From a bacterium (GTDB taxonomy: Bacteria; Hinthialibacterota; Hinthialibacteria; Hinthialibacterales; Hinthialibacteraceae), in contig CAXXSM010000132.1 of assembly GCA_963663405.2 (NCBI GenBank), positions 224,001 to 288,000 of the forward strand: DNA of 64,000 nucleotides, written 5' to 3'. The notes below the pieces were generated by a model. The model searched no databases and was not told the origin of the DNA. It saw only the letters and a list, made by a program, of their open reading frames with translations. Position 1 is the stretch's first letter; each line of letters opens with the position of its first letter. The position numbers and the translations under genes are program-made. Below are positions 1 through 56,482 of this stretch, piece after piece.

Positions 1-235
1 AGTCCGTATTCCCATCTGGAAGAATGGGGAAGGGAACTTCGTTATTGTCTACTTTGTACATTTCGATTGCGTTCGATAACGCTCGCATATCCGAATAGAC
101 GCGGCTGACTTTGGCCCGCACTTGAGCGTTTAAAAAGTTCGGAACTGCGATCGCTGCTAAAATGCCGATAATGGCGACGACGATTAATAATTCAATTAGT
201 GTAAATCCGGTCTTCCATCCCAATACTTTTCCCAT
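1..235 (-). CDS. Prepilin-type N-terminal cleavage/methylation protein (type IV pilin / GspG-like), runs off the window edge
   Basis: Manual translation MGKVLGWKTG|FTLIELLIVVAIIGILAAIAVPNFLNAQVRAKVSRVYSDMRALSNAIEMYKVDNNEVP; class III signal G|FTLIE; AAGGA upstream. Not in ORF track. Confidence 0.93.
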   Translation of the reverse strand, partial: MGKVLGWKTGFTLIELLIVVAIIGILAAIAVPNFLNAQVRAKVSRVYSDMRALSNAIEMYKVDNNEVPFPILPDGNTD

Positions 236-466
236 TTTAATACTATCCTTAATTCTTTTTTACAATGAATCAGTTAGGATACCATAAAACCCAGTGAATA
301 ATAAAAGGACATCAGCGCGTTTTTTTTGAATACTATTAATTTTTCCGGTTTTGTATAGGAGAATGTATTTCTACATCTTGATTCTTTTCTCTTTTGCAAC
401 GAAACTTATAGGTTTAATCGTCAACCCTCAATCCCCATAAGGATGAGGATACTATTGGAGGAATTT

Positions 467-1890: not shown

Positions 1891-3195
1891 TTGAGGCCAA
1901 GGAAGAATATGGGCTCAAAAGATATAGCATCAACACAATTTTATCCCGTTGAATGCTTTCGCGCTGTGCGAATAGGGTGGACGATTTTTTTAAAAGCGCT
2001 TTATCTTTTTATTAGTATCATAATTCCTTTAGACGCATTCAGCCAAACGCAAAACGAAATCGTATTAGGGATGTCCACAGCGTTGTCGGGACCGACAGCG
2101 TATTTGGGAGTCAACATGCGGGATGGAGTGGAGGCGGCCCTTGATGAGATCAATGAAAAGGGTGGAATCCATGGATATACGCTTCGATTAATTTGTTTGG
2201 ATGATGGATACGAACCCAAACGCACAATTCCCAATATCTATCGGCTTGTTGAACGGGAAAAAGTACTATCGATTATTGGAAATGTTGGAACGCCAACCGC
2301 AGTGACCGCAATTCCCATCGTACAAAAATTGAAAGTACTATTCTTTGGCGCGTATACCGGCGCCGGTGTGTTGAGAAAAACGCCGCCCGATCGGTATGTC
2401 ATTAACTACCGGGCCAGTTACGCCGAAGAAACCGCCTCCATGATCCAACATTTAATAGAATCGGCGAATCTACAACCGGAAGAGATCGCTTTTTTTACCC
2501 AGCGGGACGCGTTTGGCGAAGCGGGGTACTCGGGCGGAATTAACGCGCTTAAGAAATATGGATTAAAGAATGAGTGGAAGATCGCTCACGGGCGGTACGA
2601 TCGAAATACGCTGGCGGTCGAAAATGCGCTCGCTGATTTGTTGATGCACCCCGTCACGCCGAAAGCCATTATTTTGTATGGAACATACGCTCCCTGCGCG
2701 AAATTCATTCGCCTTGCGAAAGAAAATGGATTAGACGCGATTTTTATGATCGGTTCGTTTGTTGGAAGCGAACAATACTTGGCTGAGGTGGGAGAAAGTG
2801 GTGAAGACACATTTATCATGCAAGTGGTTCCCCACTACGAATTGGATATTCCGATCGCTAAACGCTACCTGAATGCGATACGGCAAATAGATGCTCAAAT
2901 GCAGCCAACGTTCACGTCTTTCGAAGGCTATATTTGCGCGCAAATCTTTTTTCTGGCGCTACAGAGTGCCAATCCTCCCTTTGATCGAGAATCGATTGTA
3001 TGCGTGATGGAATCCTTAGGGGAGTTTGATATTGGATTGAATTTTCCTCTTTCGATCAATCCATCCGAACATCAAGCTTCTCATCAAGTATGGCCCACGG
3101 TTGTTCAGGATGGAGAAATTAGACCTTTTGATTGGAATGCGTTGGGCTCATTCACGGATTTAAGAAAAGAAAATACAACGTTCCGTTCTAAATGA
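1891..3195 (+). CDS. LivJ-like periplasmic binding protein (type 1 PBP); true start uncertain
   Basis: LGMSTALSGP, GGIHG..LRLICLDDGYEP, GNVGTPT, INYRASYAEET motifs; hydrophobic N-terminal segment. Confidence 0.88.
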   Translation: MRPRKNMGSKDIASTQFYPVECFRAVRIGWTIFLKALYLFISIIIPLDAFSQTQNEIVLGMSTALSGPTAYLGVNMRDGVEAALDEINEKGGIHGYTLRLICLDDGYEPKRTIPNIYRLVEREKVLSIIGNVGTPTAVTAIPIVQKLKVLFFGAYTGAGVLRKTPPDRYVINYRASYAEETASMIQHLIESANLQPEEIAFFTQRDAFGEAGYSGGINALKKYGLKNEWKIAHGRYDRNTLAVENALADLLMHPVTPKAIILYGTYAPCAKFIRLAKENGLDAIFMIGSFVGSEQYLAEVGESGEDTFIMQVVPHYELDIPIAKRYLNAIRQIDAQMQPTFTSFEGYICAQIFFLALQSANPPFDRESIVCVMESLGEFDIGLNFPLSINPSEHQASHQVWPTVVQDGEIRPFDWNALGSFTDLRKENTTFRSK

Positions 3196-3222: not shown

Positions 3223-5157
3223 ATGATGAATCCGCCAATCGCAAGATCTCCGATTACAAGCTATCTAAAATTGTTTGTCCTCTTGGGTATTGGTGTTGGA
3301 TTTCTTTTACTCGTGTCGATTCGCTTGATTACATCCTATATGCAATCGGAACGAGAGAATGGTGAACTACTAAAGGATGAATCTACACAGTTCTTGCATG
3401 TCTTTGAGTTGAAATTAAAAGAAGGGAAAGAAGATCTGATCGAATTTCTTCAACCCACTCCCAAGTTAAATCCAAGAAAACAGTGGATCGAAACACTCAA
3501 GCAGAAAACGAATGAATACTACAAAAACCACCAGGAAGATTTTTTTTCCTTTCTAAAAGAGATTACACATTATACAGAGTTAGTGTCCGATTTATATCAT
3601 ACCTGCGCGCCCTGGAATTCTCATTATGTTTCCGTTCAAAATAAGATCAATCAAACAAGAAATCAGCTCTATGACTCGATCAATATGTTTCATGAATTAA
3701 CCAATATCGCCGAAGGGGAAAACCGGATTCAATTAGCCGCTCTGATCCATCGCTACAGAGATTCATCAGCAATGCGGAATGATACAATCGGCGCAGAGAT
3801 AATCGGCAAAATGACGGCGCTCAATTTTTCCAACTTGAAAATGGAAATCGGAACGTTGTCCCTATTAATTGAGCGTTTAATCAGCGAAACGGAAATCGAT
3901 GTGTTCGTGGATTACAAAGACAATCAGATCAAACCTGTTTTGTCGCGCATCGAGCGGATTGTGGGGTATTTAAATGACGCCTCTGGTGACAAATACCTTG
4001 CTATAACTAATTTAAAAAGGGAGATTATCAATGAATTGTTCGGTGACGGCGCGCTGCTGAATGATGAATACCAAACGATTGAATTAGGCCGGGAAGGATT
4101 ATATTCTTTTTTACTTGACGCGTTGTTGTTGGAGAGGGAACGGCAAAAAAACCTCGATCGAATTTCATTGATTTTTAATCAGTTCGAAGAGATTCTGATC
4201 CAGATGCAGAATGCTCTGTATTTTCAACTTGAAAATTTGTCCATTAACACCGGCATCCGGATCCAGTATGCTTCATACATTATCTACGCGATCACATTTC
4301 TTTTGTCCGCTGTTTTTCTACTCTTAGCCAGTGTGATTGTTAAAGCGGTTAATCGGCAGGTTGTAACAATTCATTCGGTCAATCAACGTCTGCAATCCCA
4401 AACCCAGGAATTGGAAACGGTAAACCAGACATTATATGCTGAGATTGAAAGACGAAAAGTCACGGAAAAGGCCTTGACAATCAGCGAAGAACGATACCGC
4501 AGTTTGTTTGAAACCAGCCGGGATAGTATTGTGTTTGTGACATTGGATGGGCGTATTGAAGATCCCAATCAAGCGTATCTGGATCTTTTAGGCTATTCAC
4601 GGGAGGAAGCGTTGAATAAATCAATTACCGATTTCACGCCCAGCCAGTGGAATGAATTCGAAGAAAGAATTCATGAAGAACAAGTGATGAAACAAGGCTT
4701 TTCGGAAGAATATGAAAAGGAAGTCGTTCGAAAAGATGGCAGTATACGTTATGTGAGTGTGCGTTCATGGTTGGTCAACAACGAAAAGAAAAAACCGATT
4801 CGCACATTACGTATTCTCCGTGATATCACGGAACGAAAAATTCTTGAAGGGGAACTTCAGAGAAAGACGCTTGAGTACGAACGGCAGCAGGTCATGATTA
4901 AAAGCTTTGCTACAATTTGCCATTATCTCAGTCAACCGTTGACGGTTTTATGGGGTCTTTTGCGGCTCCTCAAGAATACACCTGAATTCAGTCAGGACAA
5001 AAAAGTCAGCAAATACATCAACCAATGTATCGAGTCGACAGATAAAATGTCATCCTTGATCAATAAACTCCGTGCGATTGATGAATACAAAACCACCGAT
5101 TATACGAAACTTACTGAAATGGTGGAGATCGAAAAAGAGTCCGAAAACAACCTCTGA
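3223..5157 (+). CDS. Membrane sensor: TM - large helical periplasmic domain - TM - coiled coil - PAS/PAC - HisKA-like helix, no HATPase domain
   Basis: Two hydrophobic segments; SEERYRSLFE, NQAYLDLLGYSREE, RKDGS, RDITERK (PAS/PAC); ATICHYLSQPLTVL H-box; ends about 75 aa later. Confidence 0.82.
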   Translation: MMNPPIARSPITSYLKLFVLLGIGVGFLLLVSIRLITSYMQSERENGELLKDESTQFLHVFELKLKEGKEDLIEFLQPTPKLNPRKQWIETLKQKTNEYYKNHQEDFFSFLKEITHYTELVSDLYHTCAPWNSHYVSVQNKINQTRNQLYDSINMFHELTNIAEGENRIQLAALIHRYRDSSAMRNDTIGAEIIGKMTALNFSNLKMEIGTLSLLIERLISETEIDVFVDYKDNQIKPVLSRIERIVGYLNDASGDKYLAITNLKREIINELFGDGALLNDEYQTIELGREGLYSFLLDALLLERERQKNLDRISLIFNQFEEILIQMQNALYFQLENLSINTGIRIQYASYIIYAITFLLSAVFLLLASVIVKAVNRQVVTIHSVNQRLQSQTQELETVNQTLYAEIERRKVTEKALTISEERYRSLFETSRDSIVFVTLDGRIEDPNQAYLDLLGYSREEALNKSITDFTPSQWNEFEERIHEEQVMKQGFSEEYEKEVVRKDGSIRYVSVRSWLVNNEKKKPIRTLRILRDITERKILEGELQRKTLEYERQQVMIKSFATICHYLSQPLTVLWGLLRLLKNTPEFSQDKKVSKYINQCIESTDKMSSLINKLRAIDEYKTTDYTKLTEMVEIEKESENNL

Positions 5158-5324
5158 ATGTGATAAACCGAAAAGATTTGATTGGGTTCTTCCAATCAGG
5201 GAAATACCTTGGAATATTTAACTGCTCTGCGTTCATAATCCCTTTCTCAACCCCTCGTCAAAAACGATCGGATATATCCACGTATCAAATGTGTTGATGA
5301 ACGCGGATTCCGTGTTTCGAAAAA

Positions 5325-5377
5325 AATACAAATGTCGATATTTTGGGTTGACAAATAGACAGATGTCGATATACAAT
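5325..5377 (+). promoter_or_regulatory. Sigma70 promoter of the blaI-blaR operon with two BlaI/CopY-type operators
   Basis: TTGACA 5348-5353, TACAAT 5372-5377; TACA-AA-TGTC 5327-5336 and GACA-GA-TGTC 5358-5367, each followed by GATAT. Confidence 0.72.
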
Positions 5378-5525
5378 TCTCTATAACGCGCGTTGGTAGT
5401 AGTAAACAGTTTGACAAAGCAGATCGTTGTAGAAATACGAACGGTTCTTTATCCTAGTGTCTCTCTAAAGAAGTTAGAGATGATCCAGGAGAGATGAAGA
5501 GCCGGGAGAGAAAGAGAAAAACACA

Positions 5526-5933
5526 ATGGTTCCTCAAGAGATTCGGATTCCCGATTCGGAATTGCAGGTGCTGCAAGCGCTTTGGGAAAAGGGGCCTTCA
5601 ACGGCGCGGGAGATCCGAGAGACGATTGACGAAGCCCGTGGTGGGCGTCTCGCCCATGCGACCGTTGTGACCCTAATCCAACGGTTGGAAGAGAAGGGAT
5701 ACATCAAACGGACGGGAAAACAAGTGGGGAAAGCGTTTGTTTACCGCGCCTCGCTCAAACCGGAACGGGCGCAACAGCATTTCGTCCAGAAATATCTGAC
5801 CCGCGCGTTCGGCGGTGATCCCATCCCACTGTTTTCGCAGCTCATTGAAAGCGAAGACCTGAGTTTGGATGAGATCGTTAGGATCCGGGAGATGCTGGAC
5901 GAGAGAGAACGCCGGATGAAGGAGAAGGGCTGA
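5526..5933 (+). CDS. BlaI/MecI/CopY family transcriptional repressor
   Basis: SELQVLQALWEKGPSTAREI...TVVTLIQRLEEKGYI..AFVY...FGG..PLFSQLI. Confidence 0.93.
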   Translation: MVPQEIRIPDSELQVLQALWEKGPSTAREIRETIDEARGGRLAHATVVTLIQRLEEKGYIKRTGKQVGKAFVYRASLKPERAQQHFVQKYLTRAFGGDPIPLFSQLIESEDLSLDEIVRIREMLDERERRMKEKG

Positions 5934-7864
5934 TGGTTGGCGAATGGATCGTTTCGGGGGCGGCGGTTTGGTGGGATTGGATTCTTGCCTGCCTGCCGGG
6001 AGCGCTTGGCTTGTACCTGATTGTTGAATTGGTGATCCGGTACGGGAAAAATATCCCGGCGCGAGCGCGGTATTGCATGCTGTTGCTCGTTTTACTGAAG
6101 TGTGTGATCCCCTGCCCCTGGACCCTTCAAGCGCCACTCCCCGCGCTGGAGGCGCCGGCGCCGATTTTAATGGACTGGGATTCACTGTCCTCGAAACCAA
6201 CGGTTCCCATCGTCAGCGCGAACGTCTCTACTCCCATTGATGTAGAGCCGATCTCTAAAGAGGTGGAACGTGTCACTTCACTGCTTCCAGCGTTTTCGAT
6301 CTTGTTTCTACTCAGCCTCTGCGGGACGATTCTGGCCGCGGCGGCGATTATCGCCAAGATGATTCGCTCGCGGATGCTGATACCGCTTCCACGTGAGGAT
6401 GAAATCGCGGTGGAATGCGCCCGGATCTGTGAGTGTCTGCGAATGAAAATACCCCGGATGCTTGTCTCGCAAACCGGTCAGGGACCGTATGCGGGGGGCT
6501 TGTTTTCACCGTGTTTGATTGTGCCGGCGCATTGGCTTGGACGCCCGGTTGCGCAGCGGCGCCCGGCGCTTGCCCATGAATTGGCTCACATCCGGCGTGG
6601 GGATTATTTCGTCAATTGGCTTCAAGTGACGGTGACGGCGTTCTGTTGGTGGAATCCTCTCATCGCCCGGTTGAATTATTTAATCCGGCTCGAACGTGAG
6701 TTGTGCTGTGATGAATTTGTTCTGCGCACTCTTGATATAGAACCCATCGCGTATTCCCGATTGTTGTTAGACGCGGCGGAAGAACAAGTCCGATTCCGCC
6801 ATTTCAGTTGGACTCCGGCCTTCGCCGATTCCACGCATTCGATCAATCAACGCATAAGGAGAATTCTCATGTTAAAAAAAGTTCGGCCTCGTTTTTCATG
6901 GATAGGATTATTCATTGTTTTGGCTTTCGGTTTTTCATTGTTCTTTGGCTTTCAGATCGCAGCCGCGGTATCGGATCAATCAAAACGGGATTTGGCTTAT
7001 CTCCGTATTGAACTCGCGCAACTGCAATCTATACTGAAAATCGCCTATGAGAATGATTTGGAAATTCCCTCCGAAGAAATCAGCGCCCTGCGGGAAGAAT
7101 TAGGGAAATTGAAAAAGACTGTAGAGATTGAAGGGTATAGGAATCCCAAGAATCCATTGCATCACCCCTTTGATAAACCTTATGAAACGATTCGTGATAT
7201 CACCGCCCATTTTTATGAATCTATACTAGACGCGAAACTGAGAGGCGATCAAGAGAAATTGAACGAATCCAAGAAAAAATTAAAAGCGTTTTATGATGAA
7301 TTGGAACAACAAAAATCGATTGGCCTTTCGATTTATGAAGAAGACAAAAAAGAGGAGAATTACGAACGTAGAGCCTTAGAATACGGTACCTCTCTCGTGT
7401 ATCGCGGGCAGCGGAGTATGCAGAACGCGCTGGAATCCTTCTTTATCGACCACAATACATATCCCGTACCCATCGAGGGGTATCGGCTCGATCAAATGGG
7501 ACTTATCGCACGAATGGAAACGGATGAGAAAGGAAATATGAAGATTACGCCTATAGAAGAAAAGCGGCCTGTAGGATCTCCATTAAAAGAGGGGGAAAGT
7601 ATTATACGGTTGACCACCCCCATCGCTTATCTCGTGGGATTTCCAAAAGATCCCTTTGATGTGGATGGGAAGACATACCGGTATTTCAGTGATGGGCCTT
7701 CGTTTTATATTCTTTCTTCCAAAGGCCCTGACGGGGATATCGATTTCAACGTCAGTGATTATAAAGGAGAACCGAAATCGGATATAATCAATAAATATCA
7801 GTATCAATATGATTTCAAAACAGGGAAGTACAGCTCAGGGGATATTATCCGTATTGGCCCGTGA
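5933..7864 (+). CDS. BlaR1/MecR1-like M56 metallopeptidase with C-terminal GspG/pilin-like domain
   Basis: TM segments, AHELAHIRRGD (HExxH), WWNPL, ERELCCDE, RIRRIL; C-terminus NALESFFIDHNTYP...LTTPIAYL...DPF...SKGPDG...GDIIR; TGATG coupling to the repressor gene. Confidence 0.9.
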   Translation: MVGEWIVSGAAVWWDWILACLPGALGLYLIVELVIRYGKNIPARARYCMLLLVLLKCVIPCPWTLQAPLPALEAPAPILMDWDSLSSKPTVPIVSANVSTPIDVEPISKEVERVTSLLPAFSILFLLSLCGTILAAAAIIAKMIRSRMLIPLPREDEIAVECARICECLRMKIPRMLVSQTGQGPYAGGLFSPCLIVPAHWLGRPVAQRRPALAHELAHIRRGDYFVNWLQVTVTAFCWWNPLIARLNYLIRLERELCCDEFVLRTLDIEPIAYSRLLLDAAEEQVRFRHFSWTPAFADSTHSINQRIRRILMLKKVRPRFSWIGLFIVLAFGFSLFFGFQIAAAVSDQSKRDLAYLRIELAQLQSILKIAYENDLEIPSEEISALREELGKLKKTVEIEGYRNPKNPLHHPFDKPYETIRDITAHFYESILDAKLRGDQEKLNESKKKLKAFYDELEQQKSIGLSIYEEDKKEENYERRALEYGTSLVYRGQRSMQNALESFFIDHNTYPVPIEGYRLDQMGLIARMETDEKGNMKITPIEEKRPVGSPLKEGESIIRLTTPIAYLVGFPKDPFDVDGKTYRYFSDGPSFYILSSKGPDGDIDFNVSDYKGEPKSDIINKYQYQYDFKTGKYSSGDIIRIGP

Positions 7865-7891
7865 TGAATGTAAAATTGATGAAAGGATCAG

Positions 7892-7923
7892 AAGCCTCCT
7901 CCAACATTGGGGGAGGCTTTTTT
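7892..7923. terminator. Terminator hairpin between convergent blaR and the oxidoreductase gamma gene
   Basis: AAGCCTCCTCCAA...TTGGGGGAGGCTT stem with T tail. Confidence 0.8.
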
Positions 7924-50941: not shown

Positions 50942-52591
50942 TTATCCACGAACGTATACCTGATAGGTGTAGATCAATTTAATCTGATTGTCTTTACCCG
51001 GTTTTACGTCGACTGTCCAGACGAGCTGGCTTGTTGGATTGACCATCCGAAGTCCGGACGCCAGTTTCACGATTTCAGGATCGCCGGTGGTTTCTTGGAT
51101 TTCGCCGATCAGCGTTTTCGTGATTTCAACGGTCACGTCTTCGGTTTTATAATTCGTTAATTCCAATTCTCCCTTGATCGTAACAAGATCGTAATTGGAA
51201 TGATAGAACTGTGCGGCGTTCCTTCTGCGTTCGGTTTCGTATTCGTTTTGTTCCCCTTTGATGGAGATGGCATGGGTGATTTTCAGTTCGGACGACGCGT
51301 TTGGGGGGGTGTATTTGATCGTATCCTGTCCGAGAATGTGTCCGTCTTTAACGGTCATGGCGGGCGCCGTGGTCCAGGGCTGACCGGTTGTATTTGTCAG
51401 GCGCAGTGAATGCCAGACAACTTGTGGCGCCTGCGGCTGGTTCTGCTGATAGCTGTTGTTTGGATCGATGTAATTGGGAATTTCCCATGTATAAAGATGT
51501 TCGTAGGGAATCTCTCCCGCGAAGAGCGGGTAATAACCACGTTCTCCCTTTTTAAGCGTTACATTATCCACCGGATAAAAATAGAGATCCTCCGCGCTCT
51601 CTCCCATCACCGGTTCGACCGGCATGGAGGGTGTGAACGCTTCGGCGGTGTTTGAGATCATCATTTGTTGGCTGATTTGGCTGCCTACGTTGAAACGCTC
51701 ATTTCTCCGGCCAAATGATCGGATTCGCTCAAGGATTTGTTGAACCGGTTGCAGGGAAAAAGCGCTGTTTACTGAATCGAATTGAATATGGGGGAAACCA
51801 GCGATCAATTCTACACGGGTGTCTTGCAATGGAATTAAATCGTTGACAATGACTGATTTGGATGAAAACAGGGCTTTCTCTTTCTTCGATATATCAACTA
51901 CATAGCTCGGCGCCCAAGCGGATCCTTGACCCAAAAACGTCAACGTGATGATAGGTTTTTTTGAAGAGGCGCCAGTGGAGGAGGCGGTAAATTCGACGAC
52001 GTTTTCCACTTTCGGCCGTTCAATGAAATAATTCGTCTCTTCCGATGGGAACCGCACTTGTTGTATCCAATTTATTGGGATGCCTTGGACGCCCATTGTA
52101 TCTTTTATGAGGATCAACTCACCTCGCTCCGGGGGATTGGGGACGGGGATGACATTCTCCGGGTGAAGTGGAATTATCGTTCCGTCATGACGGCTGGGGA
52201 TATCCACGATCTTGACCCGGTTCCATTGATCGCGGAATTTTACGTCTAAGGTTTCACCGATATTCGCTTCGAGCAGCTCCCCGATGTTTGCGGCTTTTAC
52301 TTTTTCCAACGTCTGAACCTGCGTGGCTTTGATATTGGTTAGTGTGATAGTCTCTGGCCAGCTGATCCAGAAACTGCCAAGCAGCGCGTCCGGCAAGGGC
52401 CGCAGGCGATACGTCCCTGAATCTTCCGGCAGTTCCGCTTGCAGAACCGCCAGCGCCACACCGTTCTTGAATGTGGAAACGCTGACCGCTTTCGCTTGAA
52501 TCGTATGGACCTCTTCCTCCGCGAAAAGCGCAGTGGGAAAGAGAAGCGTAGTTAATCCGAGCGTCAGGGCGATGGATTGTTTGCGTAACAT
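50942..52591 (-). CDS. DUF4139/DUF4140-like secreted protein, paralog 1
   Basis: Signal peptide; VSVSTFKNG, WAPSY.VD, EDLYFY, LRLTNTTGQPWTTAP, LGQDTI.YTP. Confidence 0.72.
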   Translation of the reverse strand: MLRKQSIALTLGLTTLLFPTALFAEEEVHTIQAKAVSVSTFKNGVALAVLQAELPEDSGTYRLRPLPDALLGSFWISWPETITLTNIKATQVQTLEKVKAANIGELLEANIGETLDVKFRDQWNRVKIVDIPSRHDGTIIPLHPENVIPVPNPPERGELILIKDTMGVQGIPINWIQQVRFPSEETNYFIERPKVENVVEFTASSTGASSKKPIITLTFLGQGSAWAPSYVVDISKKEKALFSSKSVIVNDLIPLQDTRVELIAGFPHIQFDSVNSAFSLQPVQQILERIRSFGRRNERFNVGSQISQQMMISNTAEAFTPSMPVEPVMGESAEDLYFYPVDNVTLKKGERGYYPLFAGEIPYEHLYTWEIPNYIDPNNSYQQNQPQAPQVVWHSLRLTNTTGQPWTTAPAMTVKDGHILGQDTIKYTPPNASSELKITHAISIKGEQNEYETERRRNAAQFYHSNYDLVTIKGELELTNYKTEDVTVEITKTLIGEIQETTGDPEIVKLASGLRMVNPTSQLVWTVDVKPGKDNQIKLIYTYQVYVRG

Positions 52592-52998: not shown

Positions 52999-54657
52999 TT
53001 AAGCCCGTGTGTATACAAGATACGAATATTTTAGCTGTATCTTATTGTCAATGCCGGGTTTGACAGTGACAGTCCAAATGATCTGGGTGGATGAATTGAC
53101 TCGCCGAAGACTCGACGCCAGTTTGACTGTTTTCGGATCGCCGGTAGTTTCAATAATGTCACCAACGATTGTTTTCTTGATTTCGACTGTCACATCCTCA
53201 TTTTTATAATTCGTCAATTCCAATTCCCCTTGGATCGTGACGAGATCGTAATTCATATTGTATAACTGTGTCACGTTTCGTTGCCGGTCGGTTTCGTATT
53301 CTTTCTGTTCCGCTTTGATGGAAAGGGCGTGCGCAATCTTTAAATCCGACAGCGCGTTTGGTGGGGTATATGGGATCGTATCCTGTCCGAGAATGTGTCC
53401 GTCTTTAACGGTCATAGCCGGAGCGGTCGTCCAGGGCTGACCCGTTGTATTCTTCAGACGCAGGGAATGCCAAACCGTCTGTTCGCTGTGCGATTCTTCA
53501 TGCGGGCGCCGGTTGTCAGGATCGAGGTAATTTGGTATTTCCCACGTGTAGATATGTTCGTAGGGAATCTCTTTAGCGAAGAGTGGATAATAGCCGCGCT
53601 CGCCTTTTTTCAGTGTGACATCTTCCACTGGATAGAAATAGAGGTCCTCTGCGCTTTCTCCCATCACCGGTGTTGATGGCATGGTTGGAGGGGAAGAGAA
53701 AATGGCGTATACAAAAGGTTCCGGCTGAGATACTTGGGTGCCCACGTCATAACGTTCCCTCCTACTCCTCTTCCTTGAGCGAATCCCTTCGATGATTTTT
53801 TCAATTGGCTGTAGAGAGAATGCGCCGTCAACTTCATCGAACTCAATATGAGGGAATCCAGCGATTAATTCCACATGTGTGTTCTTCCACGGCATTAAGT
53901 CGTTGATAATAATGGATTTGGATGATAATTGGGCTTTCTCTTTCTTGGAAATATCCACTACATAACTCGGCGCCCATGCGGCCCCTTGGCTTAGTACTGT
54001 CAGCGTGATGGGAACCGATTTCTTCACCGGGGTGGCTCCATCAGCGGGTTGGGCGGTGAATTCCAAGACATTTTCAACACTCGGCCGGTTGATGTGATAA
54101 TTTACATTGGTGGATGGAAACTGCGCTTCTTGAATCCAACCTTTTGGGACCACACGGATACCCACCGACGCTTCCAAGATGATTACATCACTGCGCTTTT
54201 GAGAAATGGTTTGAGTGATTATATCCCTATGTTGTGGTTGAGTCTTCTGTTCATTTGGGTGGGGGATGTCCACGATTTTGACACGGGCCCATTTATCTTG
54301 GATTCTTAAATCCAACGTCTGGCCGATATTCGCTTCCAATATTTCTTCAATACTGGCGGCCAATATTTTTTCCTGCGTTTGGGCTTGCGTGGCTTTTATA
54401 TTGGATAGGGTCACATTTTCCGGCCAGCCGATCCAGAAACTGCCAAGCAGCGAGTACGGTAATGGCCGCAGGCGGTAGTGTCCAGAATTTTCCGGCAATT
54501 CCGTTTCGAGAACGGCCATGACAACACCGTTCTTAAATAGAGATACGCTGGTCACTTTCGCCTCAAGCGTTGCAGGTTCTTCCTCGGATAATAGCGGGGT
54601 GGGAAAAAAGAGGGCTGTTAGAAAAAGAGTCAGGGCGATGGTTTTCTTCGGTGTCAT
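52999..54657 (-). CDS. DUF4139/DUF4140-like secreted protein, paralog 2
   Basis: Collinear with 50942-52591, long identical peptide blocks. Confidence 0.72.
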   Translation of the reverse strand: MTPKKTIALTLFLTALFFPTPLLSEEEPATLEAKVTSVSLFKNGVVMAVLETELPENSGHYRLRPLPYSLLGSFWIGWPENVTLSNIKATQAQTQEKILAASIEEILEANIGQTLDLRIQDKWARVKIVDIPHPNEQKTQPQHRDIITQTISQKRSDVIILEASVGIRVVPKGWIQEAQFPSTNVNYHINRPSVENVLEFTAQPADGATPVKKSVPITLTVLSQGAAWAPSYVVDISKKEKAQLSSKSIIINDLMPWKNTHVELIAGFPHIEFDEVDGAFSLQPIEKIIEGIRSRKRSRRERYDVGTQVSQPEPFVYAIFSSPPTMPSTPVMGESAEDLYFYPVEDVTLKKGERGYYPLFAKEIPYEHIYTWEIPNYLDPDNRRPHEESHSEQTVWHSLRLKNTTGQPWTTAPAMTVKDGHILGQDTIPYTPPNALSDLKIAHALSIKAEQKEYETDRQRNVTQLYNMNYDLVTIQGELELTNYKNEDVTVEIKKTIVGDIIETTGDPKTVKLASSLRRVNSSTQIIWTVTVKPGIDNKIQLKYSYLVYTRA

Positions 54658-54752: not shown

Positions 54753-56120
54753 TTACTTTACTTTACGGGCGATTTCATAAGAAATAGGAGAACCGTTGAC
54801 CTTCAATGTATTGATGTGTTGTATGGCCCGTTGCAGTTTTTCATTGGGATTCCCTTCCCATCCCGATAAATCCAGGTCATTCACTTTTACAATGATATCA
54901 CCTTTTTGGATTACGTTTGTTGATTGGCCGGACGGCGCCGCAGTGATCGTAAGGCCTTGATTTTCGTCTGTGTCCCATTCCACGATGGTTTCAACGCCAT
55001 AAAATAACTGGCCGTCGATATTTTTTGTAAAAAACGCTAACCCCGAATGAATGTCAATATCATGGATTGAATTACTATTCTTTGGAGTTCGTCTGGTACG
55101 TCTATTGGCTTGACTGATTTGTATCACACCGTTTTCAAGAACATGGTAGTCCAGCCAATAGGAAGGCAGGACCGTGTCAAGAAAATCCCGGACGGTAGGA
55201 TTATCCAAACAAAAAGAAAGTTTTTTATTCATCCCATCATCCAGAACAAATTGCAAGCCGCATTCTTGGTGAAAGGTTGATAGAATTGAAAATAAATCGA
55301 CGTTATTCGCTTCAAACGGGCCCTCGAACCGCTTATCCAGCGCAGCGGATGGGGAAGGGGGAGCTATTTCCTTGATCAGGACAACCCCGTTTTCCATAAT
55401 CTGATATTTCAAACCACAGGATAATAAAACTGTGTCTAAAACATCGCGTACAGTAGGATTCTGAAAACTGAAAGTGGCTTTTTTCTCAATGACTCCTTCA
55501 TCCAAGACAAATGGAAGGCCGCATGCTTGTTGAAGGATTTGTATGATCGTGGAGAGTTCGACGCTTCGCGCTTCAACAGGGCCTTCAATTTGAGAGTCCA
55601 AGGCGTTGGATATTTCTTCCGGGATCTCATCGATGGGTTCTATGGAAGATTCACTAGATGAAGGTATATCCTTAGCCCGCCGGATCAGGATTGTTCCATT
55701 CTCCGTAATCTGATAACCCAGATTATTTGCAGGAAGGACACAACCTAAGATGTCCTGGACTGTTGGATTGTTGAAAGAAAAAGTCACTTTCTTGTAAATT
55801 CCCTGCTCAATGGCCATAGGAATGCCGGATTGCGCTTGCAGCGTTTGGATAACTATGGCTAGATCGACGCCACGGGCTTCAACAGGGCCTTCGATGCGAG
55901 TGTCCAACACGGCTTGAATTTTCTTGTCTATAACTGTATGAGGGGATGGCGCCGGCGCTTGTACTTTTTCTCCACTCGGAATCAATAATAATAAAGAACA
56001 ACTCCAATTCTCTTGCGAAATGTCCATTGGCGCTGTGACTCTTTGGGCGGAAACAATTAACGGGAAGGCGGTGAAAACGATCGGAAGGATAGCAAATACA
56101 TAATACCGTGATTTTTTCAT
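54753..56120 (-). CDS. Secreted protein with three tandem STN/N0-like domains and a PDZ-like C-terminus
   Basis: 3x LD....GP.EA..V.L..I...L....G....D.G..KK..F...NPTV.D.L..VL....L.Y...ENG...I; C-terminal IQKGDIIVKVND; AAGGAG RBS. Confidence 0.7.
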   Translation of the reverse strand: MKKSRYYVFAILPIVFTAFPLIVSAQRVTAPMDISQENWSCSLLLLIPSGEKVQAPAPSPHTVIDKKIQAVLDTRIEGPVEARGVDLAIVIQTLQAQSGIPMAIEQGIYKKVTFSFNNPTVQDILGCVLPANNLGYQITENGTILIRRAKDIPSSSESSIEPIDEIPEEISNALDSQIEGPVEARSVELSTIIQILQQACGLPFVLDEGVIEKKATFSFQNPTVRDVLDTVLLSCGLKYQIMENGVVLIKEIAPPSPSAALDKRFEGPFEANNVDLFSILSTFHQECGLQFVLDDGMNKKLSFCLDNPTVRDFLDTVLPSYWLDYHVLENGVIQISQANRRTRRTPKNSNSIHDIDIHSGLAFFTKNIDGQLFYGVETIVEWDTDENQGLTITAAPSGQSTNVIQKGDIIVKVNDLDLSGWEGNPNEKLQRAIQHINTLKVNGSPISYEIARKVK

Positions 56121-56482
56121 TATTTTCTCTCCTTGAATGTAATTATTTTGACCGTTTAGCCGAAAGAAGTGGTAAAATACCTGCAAAAGGAGATAATGTG
56201 TCAAAGATTATACTCTCAAAAGCAGGATAGGATTTCTATACCCCTATCGGCCGTTCAATGTTGTTTGTTTTAGGCGCCTATTAAAAAAAACGGTTGGGGA
56301 AAAGCGGAGATAACAACCAAATTGATTTGATTTGAAAAAAGAGAGAGAGTATCATTTTAATTGGAATGAGTTTCGAAGGCTTTCTCATTCGCGATTTCTA
56401 CCGCAACTCATTTTCATTTGCGCATGGGCATCTAAATCATTTGAAGTTTTTTAGAAACTATCTGAATCTCTTTCTAACAACA

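What the first reader, a model, noticed from the sequence alone, without database searches (positions are those of the whole stretch)
5526..7864. BlaI/BlaR-type signalling system whose sensor ectodomain is a pilin/pseudopilin head
Seen: intact M56 protease (HELAH), last TM, a helical stalk, then from ~7391 SLVYRGQRSMQNALESFFIDHNTYP. This aligns without gaps to the prepilin in this window, SRVYSDMRALSNAIEMYKVDNNEVP (10 of 25 identical), and is followed by LTTPIAYL..DPF..YILSSKGPDG..GDIIR, resembling GspG (T2SSG) head motifs. Known: BlaR1/MecR1 use a penicillin-binding ectodomain and control a beta-lactamase or PBP; neither is present here. Inference: a regulated-proteolysis receptor that uses a pilin head (lacking its hydrophobic alpha1-N) to sense pilins, pilus state or a pilin ligand. 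I do not know a description of such a system; it is the best novelty candidate in the window.
Basis: partly seen in the sequence, partly recalled or inferred. Interest (0 to 1): 0.82.

Follow-up and report, generated by a model that had tools for sequence, protein, structure and literature searches.

The report
BlaR-type sensor with pilin-head ectodomain
A two-gene repressor/membrane-protease switch of the kind that senses penicillins in staphylococci here carries, in place of the penicillin-binding part, the globular head of a pilus subunit, so it must sense something other than an antibiotic, and what that is remains unknown.

Summary
Window 5526-5933 encodes a BlaI-family repressor. Window 5933-7864 encodes a 643-aa M56 protease with intact HELAH and ExxxD motifs, four hydrophobic helices, a helical stalk and a 157-aa C-terminal domain. 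That domain is a GspG-type pilin head without the hydrophobic alpha1-N. It is 40% identical to true prepilins of the same genome (E 1e-15). Its AF2 model has pLDDT 92.7, and the best solved match is EpsG (Z 8.6), aligned from chain residue 27. The fusion is not a chimera: a contig from a second study bridges it, and six other representative clusters carry M56 plus head. It is still rare, seen in 2 of 41 related genomes. The head belongs to a supported clade of anchorless heads that are also fused to redoxins and LolA-like proteins; heads outside that clade sit on ECF sigma factors. Two conserved operator dyads sit on the operon's own promoter, which indicates autoregulation. No operator enrichment was found elsewhere or upstream of prepilin genes. 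The signal sensed is not shown. Pilin sensing remains an untested inference. Non-penicillin BlaR sensors are already known to be the majority, so this is a new variant of a known kind.

The parts
5324..5339 (+). operator dyad 1 (AAATAC-AAAT-GTCGAT), just upstream of the -35 hexamer
   Evidence: The same position and dyad type (ATCGAC-N4-GTCGAT or variants) occur in five related promoters. The shared 14-mer occurs only twice in the 8.44-Mb genome, both times here.
5348..5377 (+). sigma-70-like promoter, TTGACA-18-TACAAT (11 of 12 matches)
   Evidence: Consensus scan. A TTGACA flanked by the two dyads is conserved in L014-L017 and L019.
5355..5370 (+). operator dyad 2 (ATAGAC-AGAT-GTCGAT), between -35 and -10
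   Evidence: PWM score 19.1 bits; with dyad 1 it is the best-scoring pair in the genome.
5526..5933 (+). BlaI/MecI/CopY-family winged-helix repressor, 135 aa
   Evidence: PF03965 E 1.4e-25 over residues 10-126. It scores below the NCBIfam equivalog cut-offs for BlaI, MecI and CopY.
5933..7864 (+). M56 membrane metalloprotease-sensor, 643 aa (P0001)
   Evidence: The start overlaps the blaI-like stop (TGATG), and AAGGAG lies 9 nt upstream.
6002..6862 (+). Peptidase_M56 domain (residues 24-310) with three N-terminal hydrophobic helices (15-36, 47-67, 113-145)
   Evidence: and the hydropathy scan.
6575..6589 (+). HELAH zinc-binding motif (residues 215-219)
   Evidence: Invariant in the five M56-head proteins aligned.
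6698..6712 (+). ELCCD, the gluzincin ExxxD motif (residues 256-260), 41 residues after the first His as in S. aureus BlaR1 (H201, E242)
   Evidence: BlaR1 motif positions come from PMC9834060. E256 and D260 are invariant.
6893..6970 (+). fourth transmembrane helix (about residues 321-346)
   Evidence: Hydropathy maximum 2.22. Helical in the low-confidence full-length model.
6971..7390 (+). helical periplasmic stalk (about residues 347-486), variable in length and content among relatives
   Evidence: Secondary structure of the full-length model, confidence low. The stalk carries insertions, including a redoxin domain, in P0010 and P0038.
7391..7861 (+). anchorless GspG-type pilin head (residues 487-643): alpha1-C helix, beta-sheet, LTTPxAY, DPF, GPDG and GDI motifs
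7505..7585 (+). 27-residue insertion in the alpha-beta loop (residues 525-551), modelled as a beta-hairpin and found in this protein alone among the 24 heads of its clade
   Evidence: Clade alignment. Model strands 43-51 and 57-61 of P0002.
7896..7923 (+). terminator-like hairpin plus T-run, 32 nt after the stop codon
   Evidence: Pattern scan only. The region gave 5 such sites against 3.1 expected, so this is weak.

Best explanation
This is a non-canonical BlaI/BlaR-type regulated-proteolysis switch. The 643-aa protein has the BlaR1 transducer core: four membrane helices and a cytoplasm-facing gluzincin (M56) active site. After the fourth helix it projects a helical stalk of about 140 residues into the periplasm, ending in a minimal GspG-type pilin head. 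The head has no class III signal peptide and no hydrophobic alpha1-N, so it can be neither processed nor polymerised like a pilin. Shown here: the architecture, the fold, intact catalytic motifs, the adjacent repressor, and two conserved operator dyads that overlap the operon's own promoter. Inferred: an event at the head is passed through the stalk and helix 4 to the protease. The protease then cleaves the BlaI-like repressor dimer and derepresses the operon and targets not yet identified. My committed guess for the input is that the head acts as a pilin mimic. It would dock to, or be acted on by, whatever recognises pilin heads in the periplasm, meaning pilins or filaments of the roughly 150-member prepilin family, or their assembly and turnover machinery. 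It would not be binding a small molecule. I put about 0.8 on the signalling skeleton and about 0.3 on that input. The confidence given is for the whole statement.
For: Transducer: PF05569 scores 102.9 bits against a cut-off of 31. HELAH 215-219 and ELCCD 256-260 have the BlaR1 spacing of 41. D224, Y274 and RIRR 307-310 are invariant among five M56-head proteins (BlaR1 residues from PMC9834060). The four hydrophobic helices and the loop charges fit an N-out, protease-in topology.
Repressor and operator: PF03965 E 1.4e-25. Two dyads flank or overlap a TTGACA...TACAAT promoter. The same layout is kept in five related genomes and in a paralogous locus with changed half-sites.
Head: 40% identity to own-genome prepilins, E 1e-15. 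AF2 pLDDT 92.7. VIA-align gives EpsG Z 8.6 (rmsd 2.0 over 86 residues, 26% identity) and PulG Z 7.5; the first 22 rows are all pilins or pseudopilins, and model residue 1 aligns to chain residue 27. The profile hits N-truncated GspG chains at E 3.1e-8 to 1.1e-5.
Fusion is real: a 5876-nt contig from another study covers 5727-7900 at about 95% identity. M56 plus head also occurs in P0005, P0006, P0010, P0016, P0029 and P0038.
For a docking or mimic role: heads of the same supported clade (SH-like 95; 24 rows, none with a prepilin motif) are fused to redoxins, to LolA-like DUF2092 plus redoxin, and to DUF6263, where a common binding role is more economical than ligand sensing. The clade keeps the core motifs of its sister prepilins. 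It differs from them at only two substituted conserved positions (R583, D604) and by losing three loops. Other M56 proteins carry STN/secretin-N or secretin domains.
Against: No partner or signal was identified. No operator enrichment was found upstream of pilin-family genes or anywhere else in the 82%-complete genome, so the output is unknown beyond autoregulation. No pilus or T2SS machinery gene lies in the 64-kb window. The cut prepilin gene sits 5.3 kb away behind three unrelated genes. A stalk of about 140 residues would hold the head away from membrane-anchored pilin heads. Orthologous M56 cores in two related genomes carry other, unassigned ectodomains, and only 2 of 41 related genomes have the M56-head form, so the link is not deeply conserved. 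A paralogous copy in the same genome is frameshifted. Z 8.6 is only just above the range the tool calls common, and Foldseek gave no match at E 0.001 or better. Pfam T2SSG is below threshold on this protein itself (11.3 bits against 21). Cleavage of the repressor and the membrane topology are inferred, not measured.
Confidence: 0.5

Rival explanations
1. The head is a sensor of a non-protein cue. The cue would be an ion (for example the calcium that stabilises GspG-type heads) or a glycan or other envelope polymer. Ligand-dependent folding or binding would switch the protease.
For: The GPDG...D loop, nearly invariant in the family (S117, G119, P120, D121, D125 of P0002), aligns with the SLGPDG loop of PulG. 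A solved entry is titled 'calcium bound form of PulG' (5o2y, listing). That this loop is the calcium site is recalled, not tested. This protein alone has a 27-residue hairpin inserted in the alpha-beta loop, which could form a specific site. Most BlaR-like ectodomains are thought to bind unknown ligands (PMC13492132).
Against: The anchorless clade shows no clade-specific conserved pocket residues beyond two positions. The same head on redoxins and LolA-like proteins is hard to explain as a ligand sensor. No ligand-related genes are adjacent.
Confidence: 0.25
2. The head is only a localisation or oligomerisation tag, or an evolutionary leftover, and carries no signal. The protease would be regulated otherwise or be constitutive, or the system would be decaying.
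For: The same head sits on enzymes that are not signalling proteins. The paralogous M56-head gene on contig C109 is split over at least four frames. The architecture is rare among relatives. No regulon was detectable.
Against: This copy is intact over 643 codons with all catalytic motifs. A variant at about 95% identity in another study keeps the frame through two compensating indels. Head motifs are conserved across five M56-head proteins of 33-43% identity. Operator dyads are conserved across genera.
Confidence: 0.15
3. It is a canonical beta-lactam sensor (BlaR1/MecR1) controlling resistance.
For: Only the M56 core and the BlaI-family partner.
Against: No transpeptidase or penicillin-binding domain was found. 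NCBIfam blaR1_generic scores 73 bits against a cut-off of 400 and matches only profile positions 12-340 of 585. No beta-lactamase or PBP family appeared among the 51 window ORFs.
Confidence: 0.01
4. The fusion is an assembly or gene-calling artefact that joins an M56 gene to a pilin gene.
For: The genome is a 170-contig assembly estimated at 82% complete.
Against: One open frame with no stop runs through the whole gene. The head has no signal peptide of its own. A contig of a different study spans the junction. Co-linear homologues exist in another genus (G010, 39% identity over residues 1-643) and in the representative library.
Confidence: 0.01

Closest known systems
BlaR1/BlaI and MecR1/MecI of Staphylococcus aureus and Bacillus licheniformis
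   Same: M56 gluzincin core with HExxH and ExxxD at the same spacing, four membrane helices, an extracytoplasmic C-terminal sensor, an adjacent winged-helix repressor of family PF03965, and two operator dyads on the promoter.
   Different: The sensor is a pilin head on a long helical stalk, not an acylatable penicillin-binding domain with SxxK. No beta-lactamase or PBP target is present. It scores far below the NCBIfam equivalog cut-off.
Non-canonical BlaIR systems (CenIR of Clostridioides difficile; the mycobacterial BlaRI orthologue)
   Same: An M56 transducer plus a BlaI-like repressor with an ectodomain that cannot bind beta-lactams, and an unknown signal. Such systems are reported to be the majority of the family (PMC13492132, passages read; the mycobacterial case only as cited there).
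   Different: Those ectodomains are described as disordered or unassigned. Here the ectodomain is a confidently folded, identifiable domain taken from the type IV filament world. T2SSG is not among the eight architectures with 100 or more entries named in that paper. The full list of 254 was not visible to me, and the terms were absent from the one supplement held.
Major pseudopilin GspG (EpsG, PulG, XcpT), Pfam T2SSG
   Same: Fold: an alpha1-C helix packed on a beta-sheet. Shared DP(F/W) and S-x-GPDG motifs. Profile E 3e-8 and Z 8.6 / 7.5.
   Different: No class III signal peptide, no Glu5, no hydrophobic alpha1-N. It is tethered at its N-terminus to a membrane protease through a stalk. It is larger (157 against about 110 residues) with a C-terminal NG..S.GDI.R.GP extension shared with this genome's own prepilin family.
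Pilin-sensing two-component kinases (PilS-PilA of Pseudomonas aeruginosa; PleC-PilA of Caulobacter)
   Same: The idea that a cell measures its pilin pool with a membrane sensor and adjusts transcription. For PMC6058289 and PMC7196804 I saw only the search listing and the start of the abstracts.
   Different: Those sensors are histidine kinases. As I recall from the literature, they recognise the pilin's membrane-embedded alpha1-N, which is the very part missing here. No sensor bearing a pilin head was found in my searches.
Membrane-tethered ECF sigma / anti-sigma factors released by regulated proteolysis
   Same: Pilin heads of this family also end single-chain ECF-sigma-TM proteins (P0040, P0133), although the tree does not place these inside the anchorless clade. 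In both systems an extracytoplasmic module controls proteolytic release of a transcription regulator.
   Different: The output chemistry differs: a sigma factor against a repressor cleaved by M56. No sigma domain is present here.

Membership tests
Peptidase M56 / BlaR1-type signal transducers | Match to the Peptidase_M56 model above its curated threshold | tested here: met
   PF05569 scores 102.9 bits against a cut-off of 31, residues 24-310.
Peptidase M56 / BlaR1-type signal transducers | Gluzincin HExxH ... ExxxD signature | tested here: met
   HELAH 215-219 and ELCCD 256-260, with His-to-Glu spacing of 41 as in BlaR1 H201/E242. Invariant in five homologues.
Peptidase M56 / BlaR1-type signal transducers | Four transmembrane helices, protease facing the cytoplasm, C-terminal domain outside | tested here: inconclusive
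   Four hydrophobic segments and loop charges fit this topology. The helices appear in a low-confidence model (pLDDT 55). No dedicated topology predictor or experiment was used.
Peptidase M56 / BlaR1-type signal transducers | Adjacent BlaI/MecI-family repressor | tested here: met
   PF03965 E 1.4e-25, same strand, one-base overlap. Also present upstream of the related M56 genes in L014-L017 and L019.
Bona fide beta-lactam sensors BlaR1/MecR1 | C-terminal penicillin-binding (transpeptidase-like, SxxK) sensor domain | tested here: not met
   No such Pfam match. NCBIfam blaR1_generic scores 73 bits against a cut-off of 400 and aligns only to profile positions 12-340 of 585. The C-terminus is a pilin head.
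Bona fide beta-lactam sensors BlaR1/MecR1 | Controls a neighbouring beta-lactamase or PBP2a gene | tested here: not met
   None among the 51 window ORFs scanned. The flanking genes are a PAS-HisKA protein and a convergent 2-oxoacid:ferredoxin oxidoreductase operon.
Bona fide beta-lactam sensors BlaR1/MecR1 | Repressor cleaved by the M56 protease (Asn101-Phe102 in S. aureus BlaI) | not testable with these tools
   Needs biochemistry. I did not align the cleavage site.
Type IV pilin / pseudopilin (T2SSG, GspG) | Head fold: alpha1-C helix on an antiparallel beta-sheet | tested here: met
   AF2 pLDDT 92.7. EpsG Z 8.6 and PulG Z 7.5, with the first 22 rows all pilins or pseudopilins. The Foldseek top 7 are all GspG but only at E 0.04-0.3.
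Type IV pilin / pseudopilin (T2SSG, GspG) | Sequence match to the T2SSG family | tested here: inconclusive
   On this protein alone PF08334 scores 11.3 bits against a cut-off of 21. Clade members pass (for example P0006 24.9, P0008 31.9, P0014 34.9 bits). The family profile hits N-truncated GspG chains at E 3.1e-8 to 1.1e-5.
Type IV pilin / pseudopilin (T2SSG, GspG) | Class III signal peptide (G|F-T-L-x-E) and hydrophobic alpha1-N for processing and polymerisation | tested here: not met
   No such motif is found in P0001. The head is preceded by a charged helical stalk. The sister prepilins do have it. The domain is therefore a pilin head, not a pilin.
PilS/PleC-type pilin-sensing kinases | Histidine kinase that recognises the pilin alpha1-N in the membrane | tested here: not met
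   No HisKA or HATPase domain in P0001. The neighbouring PAS-HisKA ORF (3223-5157) is a separate gene with no pilin-like part.

The most novel reading that the evidence does not exclude
The anchorless pilin head is a homotypic recognition module. Through it the cell would read the state of its roughly 150-paralogue prepilin and filament system. On the M56 protease, and on membrane-tethered ECF sigma factors, it would turn filament assembly, retraction or pilin-pool size into regulated proteolysis of a transcription factor. On redoxins and LolA-like proteins the same module would deliver enzymes to pilins or filaments. That would be a pilus-state signalling principle different from the alpha1-N/kinase route known for PilS and PleC.
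Probability: 0.2. Interest if true: 0.8.

Novelty: new variant of a known kind. Interest (0 to 1): 0.5.

Why it matters
BlaR-like M56 sensors are widespread, and almost none has a known signal. In this case the ectodomain is a confidently folded, recognisable domain, which gives a concrete, testable candidate class of partner: things that bind pilin heads. The wider observation may be the more useful one. A supported clade of pilin heads has lost its membrane anchor and been spread by domain shuffling onto signalling proteins and periplasmic enzymes, in bacteria that also encode about 150 prepilins of unknown function. If the head proves to be a pilin- or filament-recognition module, it would explain how such organisms monitor and service that repertoire. 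If it binds something else, it shows a pilin fold re-used as a general periplasmic binding domain.

Tried and rejected
1. Single-sequence searches of the tail: Pfam T2SSG E 0.38, phmmer against PDB nothing relevant, Foldseek PDB nothing at E 0.001 or better. Profile and VIA-align searches were needed.
2. The repeat finder found no inverted repeat in 5150-5540. The dyads were found by eye and by comparing related promoters.
3. Regulon search with a 16-nt PWM built from 12 sites. Genome-wide hits were at chance level. The only other site pair of note belongs to another M56 paralogue's own promoter, C132:87905-87952. There was no enrichment upstream of pilin-family ORFs.
4. Complex prediction of the head against the closest own-genome prepilin (mature form): no answer, score 0.00, controls not run. 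This says nothing either way.
5. The full-length AF2 model from a 5-row alignment had mean pLDDT 55. I used it only for secondary structure.
6. The search for related loci in genome contigs picked M56-core patterns and returned mostly generic M56 genes (Chitinophaga and others). The two closest loci are unnamed MAGs, so I did not assign a phylum.
7. The search for homologous proteins is limited by shared words. It found only P0003 and P0004 with the tail, and only P0005 and P0152 as close full-length relatives.
8. Eight further long head-bearing ORFs of relatives were fetched to look for M56. 0 of 8 have it; they are redoxin or LolA-like fusions.
9. No RNA holder was listed among the sequencing runs, so expression was not examined.
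10. Three look-ups of earlier findings returned nothing.
11. Literature: four searches found no paper describing an M56 or other sensor with a pilin-head ectodomain, or anchorless T2SSG-domain fusions. The CenIR paper's one held supplement does not contain T2SSG, PF08334 or pilin.
12. The Tad pilus cluster 6 kb from the frameshifted paralogue on C109 is separated from it by SbcCD-like genes. I do not count it as linkage.
Full report
**Observation**

The two ORFs are as described. Window 5526-5933 (+) encodes a 135-aa protein of the Penicillinase_R family (PF03965, E 1.4e-25). Its stop overlaps by one base (TGATG) the start of a 643-aa ORF, 5933-7864, kept as P0001. P0001 matches Peptidase_M56 over residues 24-310 (PF05569, 102.9 bits against a cut-off of 31).

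- HELAH is at residues 215-219.
- The quoted SLVYRG... stretch begins at residue 487, which is nt 7391.
- The prepilin used for comparison lies on the minus strand at window 1-259 and is cut by the window's start.
- The 10-of-25 gapless identity is correct by my count, but it is not significant alone: tblastn of the 164-aa tail (P0002) against that gene gives E 1.2.

**The transducer half**

P0001 has the two gluzincin signatures that define the BlaR1 active site, H201ExxH and E242xxxD (PMC9834060, passages read).

- HELAH is at 215-219 and ELCCD at 256-260, with the same 41-residue spacing.
- These residues, D224 (five residues after the second His, like BlaR1 D210), Y274 and RIRR 307-310 are invariant among five M56-head proteins that are 33-43% identical.
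- Hydropathy shows four hydrophobic helices: 15-36, 47-67, 113-145 and about 321-346.
- The short 38-46 loop is basic and the 60-117 loop is acidic. The 146-320 protease region is rich in K and R. This fits the N-out, protease-in topology of BlaR1, but I ran no topology predictor.
- NCBIfam's BlaR1 equivalog model scores only 73 bits against a cut-off of 400 and aligns only to its first 340 of 585 positions. The penicillin-binding half is absent.

**Promoter and operator**

A near-consensus promoter, TTGACA-18-TACAAT, lies at 5348-5377. Two 16-nt dyads sit on it: AAATAC-AAAT-GTCGAT at 5324-5339, abutting the -35, and ATAGAC-AGAT-GTCGAT at 5355-5370, between -35 and -10.

- Their shared 14-mer occurs only at these two places in the 8.44-Mb genome.
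- The same design, two dyads of type ATCGAC-N4-GTCGAT (or TTTAC/GTAAA variants) around a TTGACA, recurs upstream of the BlaI-like gene at five related loci in other genera (L014-L017, L019).
- A paralogous locus on contig C109 has the same layout with changed half-sites, ATCGGC/GCCGAT.
- This is the layout expected for an autoregulated BlaI-type operon. Binding itself is inferred.

**The ectodomain**

After helix 4 comes a charged, helical stretch of about 140 residues (helices in the low-confidence full-length model, mean pLDDT 55), then the last 157 residues.

- P0002 matches 80 places in its own genome.
- The best matches with a class III signal motif (MRRLQGFTLIELL...) are three prepilins, on contigs C143, C89 and C25. 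They are 40% identical over about 150 residues, with E 9.5e-16, 1.2e-14 and 3.4e-12.
- Against 1.84 billion representatives there are 537 hits at E 1e-3 or better.
- An alignment of 60 short hits shows the family motifs ALExYxxDxxxYP, LTTPxAY, DPF, SxGPDGD and NGxxSxGDIxR.
- With that alignment AF2 gives a confident model: pLDDT 92.7, pTM 0.84, one long N-terminal helix followed by strands.
- Foldseek finds nothing at E 0.001 or better, but its top seven rows are all major pseudopilins (EpsG/GspG, E 0.04-0.3).
- VIA-align against 48,161 chains gives EpsG at Z 8.6 (rmsd 2.0 over 86 residues, 26% identity) and PulG at Z 7.5. The first 22 rows are all type IV pilins or pseudopilins.
- Model residue 1 aligns to chain residue 27, which is where alpha1-C begins in N-truncated pilin structures. 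The tool warns that Z below 8 is common, so 8.6 alone is modest.
- It is backed by sequence. The family profile hits N-truncated GspG chains from profile position 32 onward at E 3.1e-8 (2kep), 6.9e-8 (3g20), 1.6e-6 (1t92) and 1.1e-5 (4lw9).
- The feature search of the protein atlas also returns T2SSG clusters.
- Pfam's T2SSG model is below threshold on this protein itself (11.3 bits against 21), though it passes on clade relatives.

The domain is therefore a GspG-type pilin head. It is not a pilin: there is no signal motif, no Glu5 and no hydrophobic alpha1-N.

**Is the fusion real and recurrent?**

- A contig identical to the window spans 5300-7900 in run X1. This may be the source of the assembly.
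- A 5876-nt contig of run X2, from another study, covers 5727-7900 with 107 differences and two compensating one-base indels at 7164 and 7180. It bridges protease, stalk and head.
- I scanned 47 of the 150 listed representative hits, namely all those of 358 aa or more other than the query. Six carry M56 plus head: P0005, P0006, P0010, P0016 (with STN/secretin-N domains), P0029 (two heads) and P0038 (a redoxin inserted in the stalk).
- P0005 is the gene of relative G010. It is co-linear at 39% identity over residues 1-643 and has a BlaI-like gene upstream.
- The architecture is nevertheless rare. Among 41 genomes searched, only G000 and G010 show it with this query.
- The orthologous M56 cores of G007 and G004 (41% and 35% identity over the first 350 residues) end in other regions without a Pfam match.
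- 0 of 8 further long head-bearing ORFs fetched from relatives have an M56 part.
- The genome has 21 M56 matches at about 18 places.

**The head as a shuffled module**

The other long hits carry the head at the C-terminus of many different proteins:

- LolA-like DUF2092 plus redoxin (P0008, P0013, P0019, P0020)
- redoxin (P0014, P0017, P0024)
- DUF3352
- DUF6263
- TPR plus DUF3108
- an RDD protein
- two single-chain ECF-sigma-TM proteins (P0040, P0133)

In the own genome a head HMM finds 158 ORFs at E below 1e-3. Most are prepilins of about 200 aa. Six are anchorless fusions: ours, the frameshifted C109 paralogue, a tandem pair on C22, C132:190331-191146 and C92.

I built a FastTree of 288 head segments, after dropping two duplicates of P0001 and P0003 (134 columns, so resolution is limited).

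- It puts our head in a clade of 24 (SH-like 95) that contains no sequence with a prepilin motif.
- That clade holds 6 M56 rows, 6 redoxin rows, 4 DUF2092-redoxin rows and others.
- Its sister group within a clade of 45 (SH-like 96) contains the true prepilins C89, C143, C25, P0041, P0068 and P0103.
- The two ECF-sigma heads are not among the 45 rows listed for that wider clade.
- Compared with those prepilins, the anchorless clade keeps all core motifs and lacks three loops. It differs at only two substituted conserved positions, R583 and D604.
- Our protein alone has a 27-residue insertion (525-551), modelled as a beta-hairpin.

**Output**

I built a PWM from the 12 sites and scanned the genome.

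- There were 21 hits of 16 bits or more, against 14-24 in five Markov simulations.
- The only other site pair of note lies at another M56 paralogue's promoter.
- Upstream of the 158 pilin-family ORFs there were 2 hits of 12 bits or more, against 0-4 in 20 random gene sets.

Nothing beyond autoregulation can be assigned, and 18% of the genome is estimated missing. The window holds no T2SS or pilus machinery. Elsewhere the genome has two prepilin peptidases and seven T2SSE-family ATPases.

**Mechanism**

The best-supported reading is a BlaR-type regulated-proteolysis switch with a pilin-head input. An event at the head would be relayed through the stalk and helix 4 to the M56 site, which cleaves the repressor and derepresses the operon.

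- Architecture, motifs and operators are shown.
- Relay and cleavage are inferred by analogy with BlaR1 (PMC9834060, abstract and passages).

For the input I favour a pilin-mimic or docking role, at about 0.3.

- The same clade of heads sits on non-signalling periplasmic enzymes.
- It has no new conserved pocket.
- M56 proteins of these lineages also carry STN, secretin-N or secretin modules.

Against that reading:

- The long stalk would hold the head away from membrane-anchored pilin heads.
- There is no genomic linkage to pilus genes.
- The architecture is rare.
- There is no partner evidence at all.

Rivals are an ion or glycan sensor (0.25) and a signal-less tag or a decaying system (0.15). 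The calcium-type loop is conserved, but that this loop is the calcium site is recalled, not tested. A canonical beta-lactam sensor and an assembly artefact are excluded.

**Comparison and novelty**

A 2026 paper reports about 15,000 M56 proteins in 254 architectures, with only about 6% carrying the penicillin-binding domain. It names the eight architectures with 100 or more entries, and T2SSG is not among them (PMC13492132, passages read). Its one held supplement lacks the terms, and I could not see the full list.

Four full-text searches found no description of a sensor with a pilin-head ectodomain or of anchorless T2SSG fusions.

The known pilin-sensing systems (PilS, PleC) are kinases. For these I saw only search listings and the start of abstracts. 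As I recall, they read the membrane-embedded alpha1-N, which is the part missing here.

I therefore rate this a new variant of a known kind, of moderate interest. The wider pattern of anchorless pilin heads as a shuffled periplasmic module is the more original part.

Noticed in passing
G000:C109:23873-26167 (outside the window; L113/L002): A second BlaI plus M56-stalk-head locus in the same genome. The repressor gene is intact, but the M56 gene is split over at least four reading frames, so it is a pseudogene or carries assembly errors. Its promoter keeps the two-dyad layout with different half-sites (ATCGGC/GCCGAT), which suggests paralogue-specific operators.
   Followed up: partly
G000:C109:6800-17700 (L113): A Tad/Flp pilus cluster: TadB/C, TadA-like ATPase, TadZ-like, TadG, RcpA secretin, RcpC/CpaB, TadE and a prepilin peptidase. 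It lies 6 kb from the frameshifted paralogue, separated by SbcCD-like genes. I do not count it as linkage.
   Followed up: partly
whole genome G000: 158 ORFs match the pilin-head HMM at E below 1e-3. Most are about 200 aa with a class III signal motif. This is a very large prepilin family of unknown function in an 8.4-Mb genome.
   Followed up: partly
G000:C22:37663-42171 (L004/L005) and relatives L105-L108: A tandem pair of proteins of about 640-730 aa: signal peptide, redoxin, two repeats resembling the pilin alpha1-C region, in some an STN-like unit, then one or two anchorless heads. This architecture is more widespread among the related genomes than the M56 form.
   Followed up: partly
P0040, P0133 (representative library): Single polypeptides with an ECF sigma factor, a membrane segment and a C-terminal pilin head. 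This is a second regulated-proteolysis-type signalling context for this head family.
   Followed up: no
P0153, P0223, P0226, P0240, P0247: M56 proteins whose precomputed Pfam list includes Secretin (PF00263). P0016 and the M56 protein of L019 carry STN/secretin-N-like repeats. M56 sensors in these lineages often carry parts borrowed from secretion or pilus machines.
   Followed up: no
window 3223-5157 (+): A 644-aa ORF with a PAS domain and a HisKA domain that ends without any HATPase_c match. It follows a periplasmic-binding-protein gene (1891-3195). It may be a truncated or atypical histidine kinase.
   Followed up: no
window 7164 and 7180: The variant contig from run X2 has a one-base insertion and a one-base deletion 16 nt apart in the stalk region. 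They restore the frame, so about five codons differ in an otherwise roughly 95% identical gene.
   Followed up: no
window 1-259 (-): The 5' part of a 194-aa prepilin gene (G000:C132:223678-224259), cut by the window's start. It belongs to the big family (head HMM E 9.6e-26) but not to the sister group of the sensor's head.
   Followed up: partly
window 54756-56204 (-), 53002-54657 (-), 50945-52591 (-): Three consecutive large ORFs on the minus strand. The first has an STN domain and the other two have no Pfam match at E 1e-5.
   Followed up: no
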